DNA of 64,000 nucleotides from Arenicellales bacterium (GTDB lineage Bacteria; Pseudomonadota; Gammaproteobacteria; Arenicellales; Poriferihabitantaceae): the NCBI GenBank assembly GCA_963422685.1, contig OY730442.1, positions 2,695,847 to 2,759,846 of the forward strand. Direction: 5' to 3'. Positions 57,544 through 64,000 of this stretch are shown here, piece after piece. Under the pieces are notes generated by a model. That model made no database searches. It was not told the origin of the DNA and was given only the letters and a program-made list of their open reading frames with translations. The stretch's first letter is position 1. Every line of letters begins with the position of its first letter. Made by a program: the position numbers and the translations under genes.

Positions 57544-57634
57544 GGAGAGGTGTCTGAGTGGTTGAAAGAGCACGCCTGGAAAGTGTGTATACGTGAATAG
57601 CGTATCGAGGGTTCGAATCCCTCCCTCTCCGCCA
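57544..57634 (+). tRNA. tRNA-Ser (anticodon GGA)
   Basis: Acceptor stem GGAGAGG/CCTCTCC, anticodon loop CTGGAAA, a long variable arm TATACG...CGTAT, T-arm GAGGG-TTCGAAT-CCCTC, discriminator G, and encoded CCA. Confidence 0.95.
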
Positions 57635-58230
57635 TGCAACCCGCATTCAATATTGCTGGAAAGTGGATTGATAAAAAACTCGCTCCCCTGCGCATTCCCC
57701 TCATTTTCAGTTAGAGCAAACGGAAATGCTCTGACACGGCGGGGACAGTTCCGCGCCTGCCGCCCGACATTTGCTTTCACTGACTCTCTCCATGATCGAA
57801 ATTCTCCGCGACTGATCTTGGGAAGCATACCCATCAAGCGCTGTTGCTGCGCTTATTTAATACATTTAAAACAATATATTATAGAATAGTTTTAATTTTT
57901 TAGATTACCATACTCATCGCCGCAAAATGTCACTGAAAAACTCTGGTTCAGATTGCCTTCATGATTCAATTTAATGGCTGGTTTCATGCGCTCATCTTTG
58001 TCTGGCATCGCATGAACCGCCTTACCCCGTCTGAAGATGAAAGATTAAGGATACGACCAGAAAAAGAACATATCAATTACATTGGGATAAAGTTCAAGAA
58101 GAAAGATAAAAACTTTATTCTGATTTACTTGCAGCGAGATTAATAAAAAATCCCGCATACTGGAGGTTTACCTGGCACTGATGAAGGCTGTACAAATCCG
58201 CCTTTTGGTGTGGATGGACTGGATGTCTGA

Positions 58231-58989
58231 CTATACAGCGCAGCCTAATATCAAAACCGCCATGCCGTCCAGCCGCGCCTTGGTCTTTTCCCAGCCGGGC
58301 ATTACCTGCTGCATCAGCCGGTAAAATCGCTTGCTGTGGTTGTGTTCGGCGATATGGCAAAGCTCGTGCAGAATCACGTAGTCGATACATTCGCGCGGCG
58401 CTTTCACCAGATGCGGGTTCAGCGTCAGCCGGCCATTGGGTGAGCAGCTTCCCCATCGGGTCTGCATGGTGAGGATGTGCAGCGGTGGTTTGTCGTCAAC
58501 CCACAGGGCCTGTTCCAGCATGGCGTCCAGGCGCCCGGTAAACATGTCTTTGGCACGGGTTTTGTACCAGTCGGTGAGCAGTTGTTGGACCCTGCCCGCC
58601 GATTTGTGGCGAACCCTTACCTCCAGCCGGCCGCGCAGCAGCTTGACGCCCTGAACCTCATCCGGCGCTTCGATCACCTTTAGCAGATATTGCTTCCCAA
58701 GGTAGTAGTGGCTTTCACCGCTGATATACTTGCGGGGTGTAATGTGCTCCAGTTGCTTGCGGAAGTCTCGCAGTTGCGCATAGATCCAGCGACCACGCTT
58801 TTTTACGGCGCTCAGTACCGCATCGTCGTTTACCTGTTCCGGGGCGGATACTGTAATCCGGCAGTCGGGATGCACCTTGATCAATACCCGATTCGTTCCC
58901 TGAATACGGGGCCAGCACTCAAAGGCGATGCGCTCATCGCCATAGGTAAAACTCATCATCCGTGCTGCCGGCTTAATGGGCGCATTCAT
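58231..58989 (-). CDS. DUF45 / YgjP-like zinc metallopeptidase (M48 family)
   Basis: HELCHIAEHNHSKRFY (HExxH). The start ATG at 58989 overlaps the hsdR stop in an ATGA. The ORF-track start at 59076 would lie inside hsdR. Confidence 0.8.
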   Translation of the reverse strand: MNAPIKPAARMMSFTYGDERIAFECWPRIQGTNRVLIKVHPDCRITVSAPEQVNDDAVLSAVKKRGRWIYAQLRDFRKQLEHITPRKYISGESHYYLGKQYLLKVIEAPDEVQGVKLLRGRLEVRVRHKSAGRVQQLLTDWYKTRAKDMFTGRLDAMLEQALWVDDKPPLHILTMQTRWGSCSPNGRLTLNPHLVKAPRECIDYVILHELCHIAEHNHSKRFYRLMQQVMPGWEKTKARLDGMAVLILGCAV

Positions 58990-61900
58990 GATGCACTCAG
59001 CCCCACACGGGTGATTTGTACAATCATCTCCACAACCTTCTTGGCCTGAGTGATGCCGCCGCCGATGGCTTTGCATTCCCTGAACATCATCGGCAGCAGT
59101 TTCTTGCGGATATCGGCTTCAATGTTTTGCGGATTGATGGAGTTTTCCGCCACGGCGGTTGCCACTGCGGCATCGACGGCAAAGGCGGCGGCTACCCATT
59201 TATCCTGTATCTGTGGGTCATTGATGGCAAACACTTGCGGCAGATTTTTCTTAAACACGCCAAAGTAAGCCTGGGCCTGGCGGTTGTCTGCAAAGGTATC
59301 GGGAATATCGTTCAGGCGGCGCGCCTGCACCTGGTCTTCAAACTCGCGGAACAGCAGGTATTGTTTCAGCGGGTGGTGAAATAATTTCTCTGCTTCTGCA
59401 ATGGCCTGACGCAGCAGTTTGGAGAAGGCTTCCCGGGCGTAAGGGTCAGCGCGCAGGTCTTGCTCAATTGTTCGGGTGATGCGGGTTTTGATGATGTCGG
59501 TTTCGTTGCGGGTTTTCTCCTCGCTCCAGTCTTCCGGTGCTGGCTGCTGACCCATCCCGATCAGGTCGTACACGCCATCGGGTTCTTTCACCTCAACCCC
59601 CACCACGTGCCTGTCCAGCAGTTTCTTCACCTGCTCGGCGTATTCGTCGTAGTTGATGCGCTCACCAGCATCCTGCTGTACCAACTGGCGCAGACCGGAG
59701 AACTGTTTAATCGTTTCTTTATAGTGGTTGCGGTCGCCGTCAGTAAAGCTCTTGTCTGCAAAGAAGGCTGCCGATTGCAGGGCCACTTTCAGGCAACTGG
59801 CGAATGTGGTCAGTGCTTCGTAGAAGTCTTCGCGCACCTTGAGGTGTACGTCCACCAGTTCACCGTTTTCCTCTTTAATACGGGGTACCAGCACCCGACG
59901 CAGTTGCTCGATGTCGTTCCTGTTCTTCACACCATCGAAAATCGCCCACAGATTCTTACAGAGCTGCGGCAGGCGTTTGTACTCGGTGCGCATCTGCTTG
60001 TAGAGGCCGGTAATATCATTGATGTCGTAACCGCCCTGGGTGCGGGAGGCGAGATCCTGATATTGCCGGATGGTGGTATCCAGCTCGGCCAGAATGCCGC
60101 GATAGTCGATCAGCAAGCCGAACTTCTTCTTGGGATGCAGGCGGTTGACCCGCGCAATCGCCTGGATCAGGCTGTGCTCCTTTAGCGGTTTGTCGATATA
60201 GAGTACGGTGTTCTTTGGTTCATCAAAGCCGGTCAGCAGCTTGTCCACCACAATCAGCAGTTTCAGGGCATCGTCTTGGTCGAAGCGCTCGATCAGGCGC
60301 CTGGTATAAGTCGGTTCGTCTTGTGAGCCGACGTTCTCCTGCCACCACCGAGTAACTGCCGGCACAGCCGCTTCATCCACGGCGGTATTACCTTCGCGAG
60401 TATCCGGCGGGCTCATCACCACAGCCGACTCAAACAACCCGGCCTCGTCCAGATACTGTTTGTACTTGACGGCAGAAGCCTTGCTGTCGCAGGCCAACTG
60501 GCCTTTTAAGCCGGCGTCGACGTTGTGCGCGAAGTGGTTGACAATATCCAGCGCAATCAGGCGAATGCGGTCGTCAGCACGGTATACCTGGCCTGTTCCG
60601 GCGAACTTGTGTTTCAGGTCGGCTTTTTGCTCGTCGCTCAGGCCTTCGGTAATACGCTCGAACCAGCGATCAATGGCCCGCTCATTCACGTCCAGGTCGG
60701 GAATGCGTTCCTCATACAGCAGCGGCGTTACTGCCCGGTCTTCCGCCGCACGCTGCATGGTGTAAGCGTGCACAATAGGACCGAACTTGTTAGTGGTTTT
60801 GTCATTCTTCAGCAACGGGGTGCCGGTAAAGGCCACAAACGCCGCATTGGGCAGCGCCTGCTTCATGCGGACGTGGTTTTCACCGCCCTGGCTGCGGTGG
60901 CCTTCATCAATCAGCACAATGATGTCAGAACCGGTATTCACGCACTCCGGCAATTTGGTAGCAGTATTGAATTTTTGAATCAGCGAAAAGATGATGCGCT
61001 CAGTGCCCTGGCCTATCTGTTCGGCCAGGCGTTTGCCGGACGTGGCCATCGCTGCCTGTTTGTCTTTTTTGTTGGACAACTCACCGCCGGAGGTAAAGGT
61101 CTTGCTGATCTGGTTTTCCAGGTCTACCCGGTCGGTAACCACCACAATACGGCACTGCCTGAGGGATTCGTGCAGAATCAGCGCCTTGCTCAGAAACACC
61201 ATGGTAAACGACTTGCCCGAACCCGTGGTGTGCCAGATCACACCACCTTCGCGACCCCCGTCCGGGCGTTTGGCATGGATGCGCTCAATCAGGCGTTTTA
61301 TGCCGAACACCTGCGGATAACGGGCCACAATCCTGCCGGCCTTCTTGTCGAACAGAGTGAAGTAGCGGGTCATCTCCAGCAGGCGGGCGGGTGACAGCAG
61401 ACTGATTAATATCTGATCCTGTCCGGTTACGGCCAGTTCACCTTCAGCGATTAGATTCTGGTACCAGTCCAGGTCCGCTGCTGGGCGGTGGCTGAACAGG
61501 TTATTGCTCTGATTTTCTGAAAGCTTTTGATTCTTTATAGCGTACATCTCGGCATCTAAAATGTCTTCTTCCCGCCAGGTTGCCCAGAACCTGGCCGGGG
61601 TGCCACAAGTGCCATAGCGACCTTCGTTGCCATTGATGGACAGCAGCAACTGGCTGTAGGCAAACAGCAGCGGGATTTCATCAGGGCGCTGATTACGCAG
61701 GCTTTGTGAAATACCTTCGTCAATCGTCGGGCCTTTTTTCGCATTGCCATCGGGCCGCTTGGCCTCAATCACCGCCAGCGGAATGCCATTGACAAAGCAA
61801 ACGATATCCGGCCTGCGCGTGCCCTGATATGAAGAGCCGGCACCACCAGAACGAGTAACGCGGAACTCTTCGGTAAACACAAAGCGGTTATTGCCCGGGC

Positions 61901-62282
61901 TCTGCCAGTCAATTACGGCAACGGTAGGGCTGGCTTTTTTGCCATCCACAAACTCCGTGACGGAAATGCCGTAGAGCAAATGGTTGTAGAGCTTCTCATT
62001 GGCCATCAGCAAACCTTCGTTCAGGGCCGGGCTGCATACCTCGGCGATCAGATTATCAATAGCTCTTGCGGATAGCGGGTACGCCCGTCCGCCAAAGGTG
62101 AAGGTGCGTTTTTCAAGCTCGGTACGCAGAATCTGACGCAGAACCACTTCGTCCTGCCTGCCGCCACGGGCGGCCAGAGCCTGTTCAGGAGAAAGGAATG
62201 ACCAGCCCAGATTGGTTAATAACGCCAGCGCCGGGAGCTTGGCGCTGTATTCTTCCTGGAATTTGGGTGTGTGTTGAGCCAT
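58986..62282 (-). CDS. hsdR: Type I restriction enzyme, R (endonuclease/helicase) subunit
   Basis: 1098 aa: the N-terminal HsdR_N nuclease region (...RPDIVCFVNGIPLAVIEAKR...), an SF2 helicase with TGSGKS and a DEGHRS (DEAH-like) box, and ...QAIARVNR... Confidence 0.92.
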   Translation of the reverse strand: MAQHTPKFQEEYSAKLPALALLTNLGWSFLSPEQALAARGGRQDEVVLRQILRTELEKRTFTFGGRAYPLSARAIDNLIAEVCSPALNEGLLMANEKLYNHLLYGISVTEFVDGKKASPTVAVIDWQSPGNNRFVFTEEFRVTRSGGAGSSYQGTRRPDIVCFVNGIPLAVIEAKRPDGNAKKGPTIDEGISQSLRNQRPDEIPLLFAYSQLLLSINGNEGRYGTCGTPARFWATWREEDILDAEMYAIKNQKLSENQSNNLFSHRPAADLDWYQNLIAEGELAVTGQDQILISLLSPARLLEMTRYFTLFDKKAGRIVARYPQVFGIKRLIERIHAKRPDGGREGGVIWHTTGSGKSFTMVFLSKALILHESLRQCRIVVVTDRVDLENQISKTFTSGGELSNKKDKQAAMATSGKRLAEQIGQGTERIIFSLIQKFNTATKLPECVNTGSDIIVLIDEGHRSQGGENHVRMKQALPNAAFVAFTGTPLLKNDKTTNKFGPIVHAYTMQRAAEDRAVTPLLYEERIPDLDVNERAIDRWFERITEGLSDEQKADLKHKFAGTGQVYRADDRIRLIALDIVNHFAHNVDAGLKGQLACDSKASAVKYKQYLDEAGLFESAVVMSPPDTREGNTAVDEAAVPAVTRWWQENVGSQDEPTYTRRLIERFDQDDALKLLIVVDKLLTGFDEPKNTVLYIDKPLKEHSLIQAIARVNRLHPKKKFGLLIDYRGILAELDTTIRQYQDLASRTQGGYDINDITGLYKQMRTEYKRLPQLCKNLWAIFDGVKNRNDIEQLRRVLVPRIKEENGELVDVHLKVREDFYEALTTFASCLKVALQSAAFFADKSFTDGDRNHYKETIKQFSGLRQLVQQDAGERINYDEYAEQVKKLLDRHVVGVEVKEPDGVYDLIGMGQQPAPEDWSEEKTRNETDIIKTRITRTIEQDLRADPYAREAFSKLLRQAIAEAEKLFHHPLKQYLLFREFEDQVQARRLNDIPDTFADNRQAQAYFGVFKKNLPQVFAINDPQIQDKWVAAAFAVDAAVATAVAENSINPQNIEADIRKKLLPMMFRECKAIGGGITQAKKVVEMIVQITRVGLSAS

Positions 62283-62325
62283 GGTAATTTTTCTTTAACC
62301 TTTGTTACCTGAGGTGCAGCATGAG

Positions 62326-63996
62326 TTATCGTTTAAGAACCGAGTTATTGTCAAAACCGGGCGGCAAGTGTTTGAAAATGTCTTTTTCTCCTGGCTTGGT
62401 CCTGAACTGGAATTCTCTCAAGGCAGCAATATCTACTTTCGTTGTCAGAACACTGGGGTTTTCACCACCTTTGACATAAAGCATGGTTTTGCTATCCGTT
62501 TTGGTGGGTCTCAAAACGCAAGAACCACCATACTGAGAGGTGTTTACCTGTACGGTATAGCAATGCAGATCCCTCACTATTGATTCAAGTATATGCTGGT
62601 AGTAATTGGTATCCTTATTCCAAACACAAGCAAAGAGCAGGTCGATTTCAGATCTGAAAAGCACTCTGTGGGTAATGTCGGACAATTCAAAACAGTTGTA
62701 GGTGGAAAAACTCACGCCCCGCCAGCTAACCTTATGATAGTAGGCTTTGGGCTTAATCGACTCGTGACCCGCTTCAAGCCTTAGCGAGTTAATCAGGTCT
62801 AGCTCGTCCGGTGCATAGTGGTTTTTAATACGAGCAAGAGCTGTACAAGACTTGTATTTGTTGGACACCTTAAACGGGAGCGCCTCAATCATCAGATTGT
62901 ATGCCACTTTGTTATCTACAACCCAATGCTCAAGCCCGAATACGATTGCGATTTGGTGCCTTCTTGCGAAAGCCAGCATAAATGGCAGCCAGCTAACAGG
63001 TATCGCGACTTCCGGCATAACCAAAATATCCACCTTTTCTTTGATGGTAGAGTTTAGGAGTTGATAAAGATTCTTTTGTCTCGTAAAGCTGACATTTGGT
63101 TTTTGGTCCGTGCGCAATGCTGCTTTGATATCATTTTCGCTTACAACCAGGTTGGCAATTGCCAGCTTAATCTTGTTTGTGTTTTCTTTTTTTCCTATAG
63201 AGTATTTTGCTTTAATTATCTCTTTTTTGGGGCCAGAAATCTTATTAAATTTGACGGGAAAGTCTTCGTAAAAATTTCGTTTTTTGTAATTTATAAGAGA
63301 ACATTTAAACCATCTATTAAGACTCTTATTCGATGTCAGATTGTGAGAAATATCGAACAACTGCCATTCGTCGTAGTGGATAAAACGTGGAGACAAATTA
63401 ACTTTATTATCATCCAGGCTAATATCTGACTCTGATATAAACGTAGCCTCGTCAGTCAAATCTCCCGTATAGTTAGAGTAGTTCGCCAGTGGCCAGGCAA
63501 CCAGGTGATGTCGGATTAGATTTGAAGCTCTAAAGTTCCAGGCAAAATTGTGAATGTCCGAGTTCCATTTCGTGATAAAACCCAATTTCGATTTTTTAGA
63601 ATGAAACGCCTTTCGAAAATTATCTCCATTGGAATCTGAATTATCCTGAGTAGGATCAGTAATATCAAGAAGACCAACTGATATAGCCAGAGACAAACGG
63701 TTGTAATGACTCAAATTACGTCGAAGCTCTCCTGTAAGAACGTCGAGCACGATGTTGCCTTCCAGCGTCATGCCACAGATTTTTTCTATCTCACCATCAA
63801 GGTATCGGAAAAAATCGTCAATAAAAGATCCCTCACTGGTGATCAAGGCGTACTGATAGACCTTTTCCCAAAGTCGACTATACTGGAGCGCATTTTGCCC
63901 TTTGAAAAAGCAAGCTAGTTGGGGAAGAACGGTATTTTTTTTGTTTAGCTTACATAGCCTGTGGGCGGTTATGTGGTTTGAAAGATACTTGACCAA
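62326..63996 (-). CDS. Hypothetical protein with a C-terminal carbon-nitrogen hydrolase (nitrilase-superfamily)-like domain. The 5' end may extend past the window.
   Basis: The C-terminal ~250 aa follow the CN-hydrolase order: KLAIANLVV, ILVMPEVAIP (Glu), ARIKNHYAP (Lys), TYNCFELSD (Cys), and YTVQVNTSQYGGSCVLRP. The N-terminal ~300 aa are unassignable. The gene is markedly AT-rich. Confidence 0.55.
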   Translation of the reverse strand: MVKYLSNHITAHRLCKLNKKNTVLPQLACFFKGQNALQYSRLWEKVYQYALITSEGSFIDDFFRYLDGEIEKICGMTLEGNIVLDVLTGELRRNLSHYNRLSLAISVGLLDITDPTQDNSDSNGDNFRKAFHSKKSKLGFITKWNSDIHNFAWNFRASNLIRHHLVAWPLANYSNYTGDLTDEATFISESDISLDDNKVNLSPRFIHYDEWQLFDISHNLTSNKSLNRWFKCSLINYKKRNFYEDFPVKFNKISGPKKEIIKAKYSIGKKENTNKIKLAIANLVVSENDIKAALRTDQKPNVSFTRQKNLYQLLNSTIKEKVDILVMPEVAIPVSWLPFMLAFARRHQIAIVFGLEHWVVDNKVAYNLMIEALPFKVSNKYKSCTALARIKNHYAPDELDLINSLRLEAGHESIKPKAYYHKVSWRGVSFSTYNCFELSDITHRVLFRSEIDLLFACVWNKDTNYYQHILESIVRDLHCYTVQVNTSQYGGSCVLRPTKTDSKTMLYVKGGENPSVLTTKVDIAALREFQFRTKPGEKDIFKHLPPGFDNNSVLKR

Positions 63997-64000
63997 CTCC

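What the first reader, a model, noticed from the sequence alone, without database searches (positions are those of the whole stretch)
62326..64000. An AT-rich gene with a nitrilase-superfamily-like domain sits inside a type I restriction locus: a candidate defence gene
- Immediately upstream of hsdR, on the same strand with a 43-nt gap, lies an ORF of at least 556 aa.
- Its C-terminal ~250 aa follow the order of the carbon-nitrogen hydrolase catalytic elements. These are ILVMPEVAIP (Glu), ARIKNHYAP (Lys), TYNCFELSD (Cys), and ...YTVQVNTSQYGGSCVLRP.
- The N-terminal ~300 aa are unassignable.
- Hand counts of individual 60-nt lines give roughly 25-40% G+C here, against about 55% in hsdR. This indicates a separate, foreign origin.
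- Type I R-M operons are well-known landing sites for other anti-phage genes.
- I do not know of a described defence system built on a CN-hydrolase effector of this architecture.
- The gene may continue beyond the window, and hsdM/hsdS are not in view.
Basis: partly seen in the sequence, partly recalled or inferred. Interest (0 to 1): 0.65.

Follow-up and report, generated by a model that had tools for sequence, protein, structure and literature searches.

The report
Reverse transcriptase-nitrilase defence gene, cut off
The AT-rich ORF is the last 57% of a known kind of anti-phage gene, a UG5-large reverse transcriptase fused to a nitrilase, sitting inside a type I restriction locus; it is a new, fairly divergent member of a described family, not a new kind of defence system.

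Summary
An open frame of 557 codons runs on the minus strand from the window edge (64000) to a stop at 62326-62328. It lies 43 nt upstream of hsdR and has 41% G+C against 55% in hsdR.

The nitrilase call is right:
- E330, K392, E399 and C436 are invariant in 62 homologues.
- The AlphaFold model matches nitrilase-superfamily amidases.
- C436 aligns with the catalytic C1116 of DRT1.

The claim that no such defence system is described is wrong. The whole fragment matches PADLOC's RT_UG5-nitrilase profile (E=3.7e-165, profile positions 426-955 of 958). Full-length homologues are 955-975 aa and carry a YVDD reverse-transcriptase domain, so about 410 N-terminal residues lie beyond the window. The "unassignable" half is the helical domain that follows the RT in UG5 proteins.

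UG5-large systems have published anti-phage activity (E. coli RT-nitrilase+TM, 2022; S. meliloti DRT11, 2026). The related DRT1 works by protein-primed, template-free DNA synthesis that controls a nitrilase effector.

This copy has no transmembrane partner. It sits in the hsdS-hsdR slot, as in 8 of 80 related loci; embedding of defence genes in type I R-M loci is itself already described.

Verdict: new member of a known kind, low-to-moderate interest.

The parts
62326..64000 (-). 3' part (557 codons plus stop) of a UG5-large reverse transcriptase-nitrilase gene. It is open at the window edge; about 410 N-terminal codons, including the RT palm with YVDD, lie beyond 64000.
   Evidence: translation. 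PDLC02995 RT_UG5-nitrilase, E=3.7e-165, protein 1-557 matched to profile 426-955/958; full-length homologues of 955-975 aa with PF00078 and YGRYVDD.
63265..63999 (-). All-helical domain (fragment residues 1-245): the RT-associated extension between the RT and the nitrilase.
   Evidence: RT_UG5_small profile 419-602/631, E=2e-31. AlphaFold models with pLDDT 87-90, almost entirely helices; no significant PDB fold match (best E=3.4, HAT/HEAT-like repeats).
62329..63129 (-). Nitrilase-superfamily (CN-hydrolase) effector domain with C-terminal tail (fragment residues ~291-557).
   Evidence: RTasNitrilase E=2.2e-37 and Drt1a nitrilase region E=1.4e-12. Foldseek hits to amidases 6ypa, 4lf0, 2plq, 1j31 (E~3e-10, prob 1.0, TMt up to 0.69). 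Pfam CN_hydrolase only E=0.039, below the gathering score.
63010..63012 (-). Codon of Glu330 (PE motif), the catalytic glutamate candidate.
   Evidence: Invariant in 62 sequences. Lies in the stretch matched by Pfam CN_hydrolase and TIGR00546 Lnt.
62824..62826 (-). Codon of Lys392 (RIKN motif), the catalytic lysine candidate. Invariant Glu399 (62803-62805) follows 7 residues later, as the second Glu does in amidases.
   Evidence: Invariant. The K-to-C spacing of 44 residues compares with 43 in DRT11 (Lys833/Cys876, PMC13436386).
62692..62694 (-). Codon of Cys436 (NCFE motif), the catalytic cysteine candidate. Glu438 is at 62686-62688.
   Evidence: Invariant. Aligns with C1116 of DRT1 chain 9yfd_A; C1116A abolishes DRT1 immunity (PMC13275509).
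62283..62325 (-). 43-nt spacer between the RT-nitrilase stop and the hsdR start; it is the leader of hsdR.
   Evidence: No terminator-like site on the minus strand here. The leader sequence is conserved with a relic hsdR 5' end in L003.
58986..62282 (-). hsdR, the type I restriction enzyme R subunit (1098 aa).
   Evidence: It is 72-80% identical to the hsdR downstream of the RT-nitrilase in L002, L003 and L008.
58231..59076 (-). YgjP-like (M48/WLM-type) metallopeptidase gene that follows hsdR.
   Evidence: PF01863, E=6e-60. The same gene follows hsdR in L002, L003, L008, L025, L035, L045 and L056.
57544..57634 (+). tRNA-Ser(GGA), at the edge of the R-M/defence island.

Best explanation
The ORF is the 3' 57% of a single-gene anti-phage system of the UG5-large type (class 3 UG/Abi reverse transcriptases, also called DRT5L or DRT11-like). 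The full protein would be about 970 aa and have three parts:
- an N-terminal reverse transcriptase, which lies outside the window;
- a family-specific helical domain;
- a C-terminal nitrilase-superfamily effector with an E-K-E-C active site.

It was acquired as a separate cassette into the hsdS-hsdR slot of a type I R-M operon. It is probably co-transcribed with hsdR and has no transmembrane partner.

Proposed mechanism, inferred from relatives and not shown for this gene:
1. The RT domain makes short, template-free, protein-primed ssDNA that stays covalently attached to the protein.
2. The adduct drives oligomerisation of the nitrilase domains and holds them in a dormant assembly.
3. A phage replication factor releases the block.
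4. The nitrilase then hydrolyses a still unknown essential amide or amine substrate. This gives abortive infection.

The confidence of 0.85 refers to the identity of the gene. I put the mechanism at about 0.55.
For: Shown here:
- The family profile matches over the entire fragment.
- There are 148 homologues; the full-length ones are 955-975 aa and carry RVT_1/YVDD upstream of the point where the window ends.
- E330, K392, E399, C436 and E438 are invariant in 62 sequences.
- The model is high-confidence (pLDDT 90.5) and has a nitrilase fold.
- C436 aligns with DRT1 C1116.
- G+C is 14 points below the flanking hsdR, and the switch falls at the gene boundary.
- The same hsdM-hsdS-[RT-nitrilase]-hsdR-ygjP order occurs in L002 and L008. 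L003 has extra cargo in the same slot.
- A type I R-M lies within 10 kb in 15 of 80 related loci.

From the literature:
- UG5-large is enriched in defence islands (PMC9226505).
- An E. coli UG5 RT-nitrilase+TM system is anti-phage (PMC9122126).
- S. meliloti DRT11 needs both RT (DD296-297AA) and nitrilase (C876A) residues, needs no TM protein or ncRNA, and behaves as abortive infection (PMC13436386).
[quoted passage not shown] The DNA adduct, filament and nitrilase model was worked out for DRT1 (PMC13275509, PDB 9YFD).
Against: - The RT domain, the start codon and the promoter are outside the window, so the intactness of the gene is unproven.
- No database held the source contig.
- The closest relative is only 60-62% identical.
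- The nearest experimentally tested relatives are distant: 29% identity to DRT11 over the nitrilase domain only, and 46-48% to enterobacterial UG5-large proteins.
- The E. coli system is reported to need its TM partner (PMC9226505, citing PMC9122126). No TM partner is present here.
- Pfam CN_hydrolase on its own is below threshold.
- The DRT1 priming serine is not conserved in other class 3 RTs (PMC13275509).
- The filament and lid mechanism has been shown only for DRT1.
- The nitrilase substrate is unknown for the whole class.
Confidence: 0.85

Rival explanations
1. Functionally coupled guard of the type I R-M system, working like PrrC. The embedded RT-nitrilase would be kept silent by, or would sense the inactivation of, the HsdMSR complex, and would fire when a phage anti-restriction protein disables restriction.
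For: - The gene is embedded between hsdS and hsdR, in the same orientation, with a 43-nt gap and no terminator.
- The same embedded position occurs in 8 of 80 related loci from Gammaproteobacteria, Bacteroidota, Ignavibacteriota and Verrucomicrobiota, in at least 3 clades of the RT-nitrilase tree.
- No TM partner is present in the embedded copies examined (the window; L002).
- There are precedents of embedded partners: PrrC, and TgvAB with enhanced protection in the full cluster (PMC11411939; bioRxiv 10.1101/2024.01.29.577857).
Against: - Closely related copies (L001, L004, L005, L006) are not embedded and are interleaved with embedded ones in the tree.
- The slot also holds unrelated cargo: SIR2-HerA and McrBC in L003.
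- DRT11 and DRT1 protect on their own in hosts lacking the native neighbours (PMC13436386, PMC13275509).
- Type I R-M loci commonly carry embedded, co-oriented defence genes without known coupling (bioRxiv 10.1101/2024.01.29.577857).
Confidence: 0.1
2. An inactive remnant: a 5'-truncated or decaying RT-nitrilase gene left in the R-M locus.
For: The 5' 43% cannot be seen. The source contig could not be recovered. Truncated relatives exist in databases, for example P0021, P0049 and P0079.
Against: There are 557 uninterrupted codons. Every residue that is invariant in the 62-sequence family is retained. The fragment scores 549 bits against its family profile, end to end, over the part in view.
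Confidence: 0.04
3. A housekeeping or metabolic nitrilase or amidase that merely happens to sit next to hsdR.
For: It has a nitrilase-superfamily fold and catalytic residues.
Against: - Canonical family models barely detect it (Pfam E=0.039; Lnt E=0.006).
- The defence-RT-associated nitrilase profiles match at E=1e-37 to 1e-165.
- The same polypeptide carries the UG5 RT-associated helical domain.
- Almost all full-length homologues carry an RT domain.
Confidence: 0.01

Closest known systems
UG5-large RT-nitrilase of Enterobacteria (the 'RT-nitrilase + 1TM' system of E. coli P4-like satellites, PMC9122126; PADLOC RT_UG5-nitrilase PDLC02995 plus RTasTM)
   Same: Same family profile is the best match. 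Enterobacterial homologues (E. coli, Enterobacter, Cronobacter, Serratia, Dickeya) are 44-48% identical over the full 557 aa. They have the same length class (~958-970 aa), the same helical domain and the same nitrilase motifs.
   Different: Those loci carry an RTasTM transmembrane gene right after the RT-nitrilase (L082), and it is reported to be required. Here hsdR follows after 43 nt and no TM partner exists anywhere in the window. The genomic site also differs: an integrase or satellite hotspot there, the hsdS-hsdR slot here. I did not verify that any listed E. coli protein is the exact tested one.
DRT11, the UG5-large system of Sinorhizobium meliloti RMO17 (PMC13436386)
   Same: A single-gene RT-nitrilase without a TM partner or ncRNA. 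It has a YVDD RT (seen only in homologues here) and a K-C-E nitrilase centre with the same spacing. Both activities are needed, and the phenotype resembles abortive infection.
   Different: Only 29% identity, and only over the nitrilase domain. DRT11 belongs to the other UG5 profile (PDLC03780 at 1016 bits against 136 bits for PDLC02995). It is encoded on a megaplasmid, not inside an R-M operon.
DRT1 (UG1) of Klebsiella pneumoniae, PDB 9YFD (PMC13275509)
   Same: [quoted passage not shown] The catalytic Cys aligns (C436 with C1116). There is a conserved C-terminal tail with an invariant Lys (K543 here; K1219 in DRT1), but this equivalence is inferred, not aligned.
   Different: DRT1 is 1200-1300 aa and is a different RT clade. 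Only the nitrilase region is detectably similar (Drt1a profile E=1e-12 over residues 315-548). The priming Ser402 is not conserved outside DRT1.
Defence genes embedded in type I R-M operons (PrrC in EcoprrI; TgvAB in V. cholerae VPI-2, PMC11411939; 'guilt by embedding', bioRxiv 10.1101/2024.01.29.577857)
   Same: Position between hsdS and hsdR, the same orientation, and a likely shared transcript.
   Different: The proteins are unrelated. No functional coupling has been shown for RT-nitrilases.

Membership tests
UG5-large RT-nitrilase (class 3 UG/Abi; DRT5L / DRT11-like) | Significant end-to-end match to the family profile | tested here: met
   PDLC02995 E=3.7e-165, 549 bits, fragment 1-557 matched to profile 426-955/958. 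Also PDLC03780, E=4e-139.
UG5-large RT-nitrilase (class 3 UG/Abi; DRT5L / DRT11-like) | N-terminal reverse transcriptase domain with a YxDD active site in the same polypeptide | not testable with these tools
   This part lies beyond window position 64000. Full-length homologues (955-975 aa) have PF00078 and YGRYVDD. The source contig was not found.
UG5-large RT-nitrilase (class 3 UG/Abi; DRT5L / DRT11-like) | CN-hydrolase domain fused at the C-terminus (not a separate ORF as in UG5-small), with conserved catalytic residues | tested here: met
   One uninterrupted ORF spans the helical domain and the nitrilase. E330, K392, E399 and C436 are invariant. Nitrilase fold, E~3e-10. C436 aligns with DRT1 C1116.
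UG5-large RT-nitrilase (class 3 UG/Abi; DRT5L / DRT11-like) | Extension of unknown function between the RT and the hydrolase domain | tested here: met
   Residues 1-245 are helical and match the C-terminal part of the RT_UG5_small profile. No PDB fold match.
UG5-large RT-nitrilase (class 3 UG/Abi; DRT5L / DRT11-like) | Downstream TM partner (clusters 85/1858). This is optional: 31 of 299 members (PMC9226505). | tested here: not met
   hsdR follows after 43 nt. tblastn with three TM partners finds nothing in the window. The feature is not defining, since most members and DRT11 lack it.
UG5-large RT-nitrilase (class 3 UG/Abi; DRT5L / DRT11-like) | Anti-phage activity that depends on the RT and nitrilase residues | not testable with these tools
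   An experiment is needed. It has been shown for relatives only (PMC13436386, PMC9122126).
Nitrilase superfamily (Pfam CN_hydrolase PF00795) | Score above the Pfam gathering threshold | tested here: not met
   13.7 bits against a cut-off of 23.2 (E=0.039). Some homologues do carry a precomputed PF00795 hit.
Nitrilase superfamily (Pfam CN_hydrolase PF00795) | Alpha-beta-beta-alpha fold with a Glu-Lys-Cys (plus second Glu) centre | tested here: met
   (61 PDB matches at E<=0.001; all 50 chains listed are nitrilase-superfamily enzymes). (invariant residues in canonical order). The 3-D geometry of the triad in the model was not measured.
DRT1 (UG1) | UG1 RT clade, 1200-1300 aa, conserved priming Ser402 | tested here: not met
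   Only the nitrilase region matches the Drt1a profiles (E=1e-12). Homologues are ~970 aa. It works like DRT1 but is not a member.
Type I restriction-modification locus | hsdR, hsdM and hsdS all present | tested here: inconclusive
   hsdR is confirmed. hsdM and hsdS are not in the window. In the syntenic loci L002, L003 and L008 they lie directly upstream of the RT-nitrilase or cargo.

The most novel reading that the evidence does not exclude
UG5-type RT-nitrilases that sit in the hsdS-hsdR slot without a TM partner could be a functionally coupled second line of the type I R-M system. They would work like PrrC: armed by, or sensing the inhibition of, HsdMSR, rather than being independent cargo. 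The recurrent embedded position in at least 3 clades and several phyla (8 of 80 loci) does not exclude this.
Probability: 0.1. Interest if true: 0.6.

Novelty: new member of a known kind. Interest (0 to 1): 0.25.

Why it matters
As it stands, this adds one divergent member (at most 62% identity to anything found) to a family whose defence role is already published, so the gain is mostly in annotation.

Two points have some value:
- It is another natural example of a TM-less, single-gene UG5-large system, like DRT11. That fits a self-sufficient RT-nitrilase core.
- The repeated placement of UG5 RT-nitrilases directly upstream of hsdR in distant phyla, with a relic hsdR 5' end flanking the cargo in one relative, suggests how cassettes may be swapped in type I R-M operons. 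It also gives a concrete set of loci for testing whether embedded systems cooperate with restriction.

The big open question for the class, the substrate of the nitrilase, is not advanced by this window.

Tried and rejected
**Extending the contig (all failed)**
- Megablast against 5,426 E. coli genomes found no hit.
- The GTDB species-representative scan found relatives only, at most 62% identical.
- Exact-protein look-ups of hsdR, ygjP and ssb found nothing on record.
- An exact 41-mer scan of the metagenome contigs found nothing.
- The RT domain, hsdS and hsdM of this particular locus therefore remain unseen.

**Searches that added little**
- Pfam and NCBIfam alone would have left the gene nearly unannotated (CN_hydrolase E=0.039, Lnt E=0.006). 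Only the defence-specific library identified it.
- A fold search of the helical half gave no significant PDB match. That PDB copy ends in April 2026, and DRT1 (9YFD) did not appear among its matches.
- A TM partner was looked for and is absent.
- An ncRNA was looked for with Rfam; only the tRNA was found. This fits class 3 RTs, which need no template RNA.
- The supplements of the 'guilt by embedding' paper held no UG5, nitrilase or DRT entries. I therefore could not obtain a published embedding frequency for UG5.

**Readings rejected**
- A metabolic nitrilase.
- A UG5-small arrangement: here the helical domain and the nitrilase are in one ORF.
- DRT1 membership.
Full report
**1. Observation**

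On the minus strand an open frame runs from the window edge to a TAA stop at 62326-62328. It has 557 sense codons and no stop upstream, so the 5' end is cut by the window. The listed TTG start at 63996 is an artefact of the edge.

The next gene on the same strand starts 43 nt downstream, at 62282. It is a typical type I R subunit of 1098 aa (HSDR_N, SWI2_SNF2, T1R_D3, TIGR00348; PADLOC REase_I E=0). A YgjP-like metallopeptidase gene follows it (58231-59076).

G+C is 41.1% in the ORF, 55.3% in hsdR, 56.7% in ygjP and 51.3% in the whole window. GC3 is 45% in the ORF against 67% in hsdR.

**2. What the gene is**

General libraries barely see it: Pfam CN_hydrolase gives E=0.039, below the gathering score, and NCBIfam Lnt gives E=0.006.

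The defence library identifies it at once:
- PADLOC RT_UG5-nitrilase PDLC02995 matches at E=3.7e-165. Fragment residues 1-557 align to profile positions 426-955 of 958.
- Residues 1-226 match the C-terminal part of the RT_UG5_small profile (positions 419-602 of 631, E=2e-31).
- Residues 301-550 match the RT-associated nitrilase profile (E=2e-37).
- Residues 315-548 match the nitrilase end of Drt1a (E=1e-12).

A search of 5.8 billion proteins gave 148 hits. The full-length ones are 955-975 aa and carry PF00078. The best is only 60% identical.

In the alignment the window fragment starts about 410 residues into these proteins. That is downstream of their YGRYVDD motif. The window therefore holds the last 57% of a UG5-large reverse transcriptase-nitrilase fusion, and the RT domain lies beyond position 64000.

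**3. The nitrilase call**

- E330 (PE), K392 (RIKN), E399, C436 and E438 (NCFE) are invariant in 62 sequences that go down to ~28% identity. So are the residues of the QVNTSQYGGS motif.
- An AlphaFold2 model of the fragment is confident (pLDDT 90.5, pTM 0.90).
- Foldseek against the PDB returns nitrilase-superfamily amidases, carbamoylases, formamidases and nitrilases (E down to 3e-10, probability 1.0, TM-score up to 0.69 on the target).
- By sequence, the only PDB match of the C-terminal 284 aa is DRT1 (9yfd). There C436 aligns with C1116. This is the residue whose C1116A change abolishes DRT1 immunity (PMC13275509).
- The K-to-C spacing of 44 residues matches DRT11 (Lys833/Cys876; PMC13436386).
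- I did not measure the triad geometry in the model.

**4. The 'unassignable' half**

Residues 1-245 are predicted to be almost entirely helical. They have no significant structural neighbour in the PDB copy available (best E=3.4, HAT/HEAT-type repeats).

By profile, this region is the extension that follows the RT in both UG5-small and UG5-large proteins. It corresponds to the 'extension of unknown function' noted for class 3 RTs (PMC9226505) and to the helical repeat domain of the DRT1 structure (PMC13275509). The S. meliloti paper describes a small connector, labelled DUF4136, in the equivalent place (PMC13436386).

**5. What is known about the family**

- UG5 is a class 3 UG/Abi RT group. 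UG5-large has the fused nitrilase, and a TM protein is encoded downstream in 31 of 299 members. The group is enriched in defence islands (PMC9226505).
- An E. coli P4-satellite UG5 'RT-nitrilase + 1TM' system protects against phage (PMC9122126). The TM protein is reported to be required (PMC9226505).
- S. meliloti DRT11 is a TM-less UG5-large. It protects in an MOI-dependent way, needs both DD296-297 and C876, and needs no upstream ncRNA (PMC13436386).
- For DRT1, the covalent DNA adduct drives tetramer and filament assembly. A domain-swapped C-terminal lid keeps the nitrilase dormant, and phage factors including the T4 Dda helicase are required for activation. The substrate is unknown (PMC13275509).

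**6. This copy compared with tested relatives**

- Identity to enterobacterial UG5-large proteins is 44-48% over the whole fragment.
- One such locus has the RTasTM partner directly downstream (L082).
- Identity to DRT11 is 29%, over the nitrilase domain only. DRT11 fits the other UG5 profile best.
- The window has no TM partner. hsdR follows at once, and tblastn with three partner types finds nothing.
- A conserved C-terminal tail (FK543xxPPGF, with K543 invariant) may be the counterpart of the DRT1 lid Lys1219. This is an inference only.

**7. Context**

The GTDB scan did not recover the source genome; the best locus was Sodalis sp. RH21 at 62% identity.

Three of the closest loci share the window's backbone:
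- Marinomonas L002 and Alteromonadales L008 read hsdM-hsdS-[RT-nitrilase]-hsdR-ygjP.
- Bermanella L003 reads hsdM-hsdS-SIR2-HerA-[RT-nitrilase]-McrB-McrC-hsdR-ygjP.
- Their hsdR proteins are 72-80% identical to the window's.

In all, 8 of 80 loci have the RT-nitrilase directly between hsdS and hsdR; in L058 it is a separate nitrilase ORF of the UG5-small type. Fifteen of 80 loci have a type I R-M within 10 kb.

In a neighbour-joining tree, the seven embedded copies included (L058 was too short) fall in three clades and are interleaved with non-embedded ones. With L058, embedded copies are in at least three clades. This pattern, the foreign composition and the other cargo in the same slot all fit a cassette hotspot rather than an obligate partnership.

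Embedding of co-oriented defence genes in type I R-M operons is documented (bioRxiv 10.1101/2024.01.29.577857; PMC11411939).

No terminator-like site lies between the gene and hsdR, so co-transcription is likely. This is an inference.

**8. Mechanism proposed**

- Shown here: domain identity, conservation of the catalytic residues, and embedding.
- Inferred from relatives:
  1. The RT domain primes on itself and makes short untemplated ssDNA.
  2. The adduct promotes assembly of the nitrilase domains and keeps them quiescent.
  3. A phage replication protein relieves the block.
  4. The nitrilase hydrolyses an essential metabolite, which gives abortive infection.
- I put the identity of the gene at about 0.9 and this mechanism at about 0.55.

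**9. Rivals**

- A PrrC-like coupling with the R-M complex is not excluded (about 0.1).
- A decayed remnant is unlikely, given the intact frame and the retained invariant residues (about 0.04).
- A metabolic nitrilase is essentially excluded.

**10. Verdict**

This is a real feature and a correct domain call, but it belongs to a known family. It is a new member of a known kind, and interest is low to moderate.

Noticed in passing
L003:8490-8680, compared with window 62150-62340 (minus strand): In Bermanella L003 a relic of an hsdR leader plus the first ~32 codons sits between herA and the RT-nitrilase gene. The intact hsdR lies 7 kb further on. The relic's leader resembles the 43-nt leader in the window. 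This looks like a footprint of cargo exchange by recombination at the conserved 5' end of hsdR.
   Followed up: partly
window 57544-58230: A tRNA-Ser(GGA) gene (57544-57634, plus strand) is followed by a 42% G+C spacer. It borders the ygjP-hsdR-RT-nitrilase block. On the other side lie core genes: pdxH, ssb, an MFS transporter and uvrA. hsdR and ygjP have GC3 of 67%, against 57% for uvrA, so the R-M backbone also looks acquired. This is a probable tRNA-flanked island whose far end is outside the window.
   Followed up: partly
L005:6439-7062: In Acinetobacter rudis the gene right after the UG5-large RT-nitrilase is a CBASS-type 2TM effector (PADLOC Effector 2TM, E=3e-62). It takes the place of the usual RTasTM/Drt1b partner seen in L004 and L082. 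This is a possible swap of membrane effectors between defence families.
   Followed up: no
L003:5674-8500 and L003:11952-15877: The same hsdS-hsdR slot also holds a SIR2-HerA pair and a McrB/McrC pair. That makes three extra systems inside one type I R-M operon.
   Followed up: no
L058 and L057-L079 (several): In many weaker loci the ORF holding the match is only about 290-450 aa, in most about 310-350 aa. That fits a stand-alone nitrilase ORF of the UG5-small type. In L058 this ORF also sits directly upstream of an hsdR. The position next to hsdR is therefore not restricted to the fused form.
   Followed up: no
window 58986-59076: The longest ygjP ORF overlaps the 3' end of hsdR by 91 nt. Homologues align only from about residue 10-40 onward, so the real start is probably further downstream and the overlap is smaller.
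   Followed up: no
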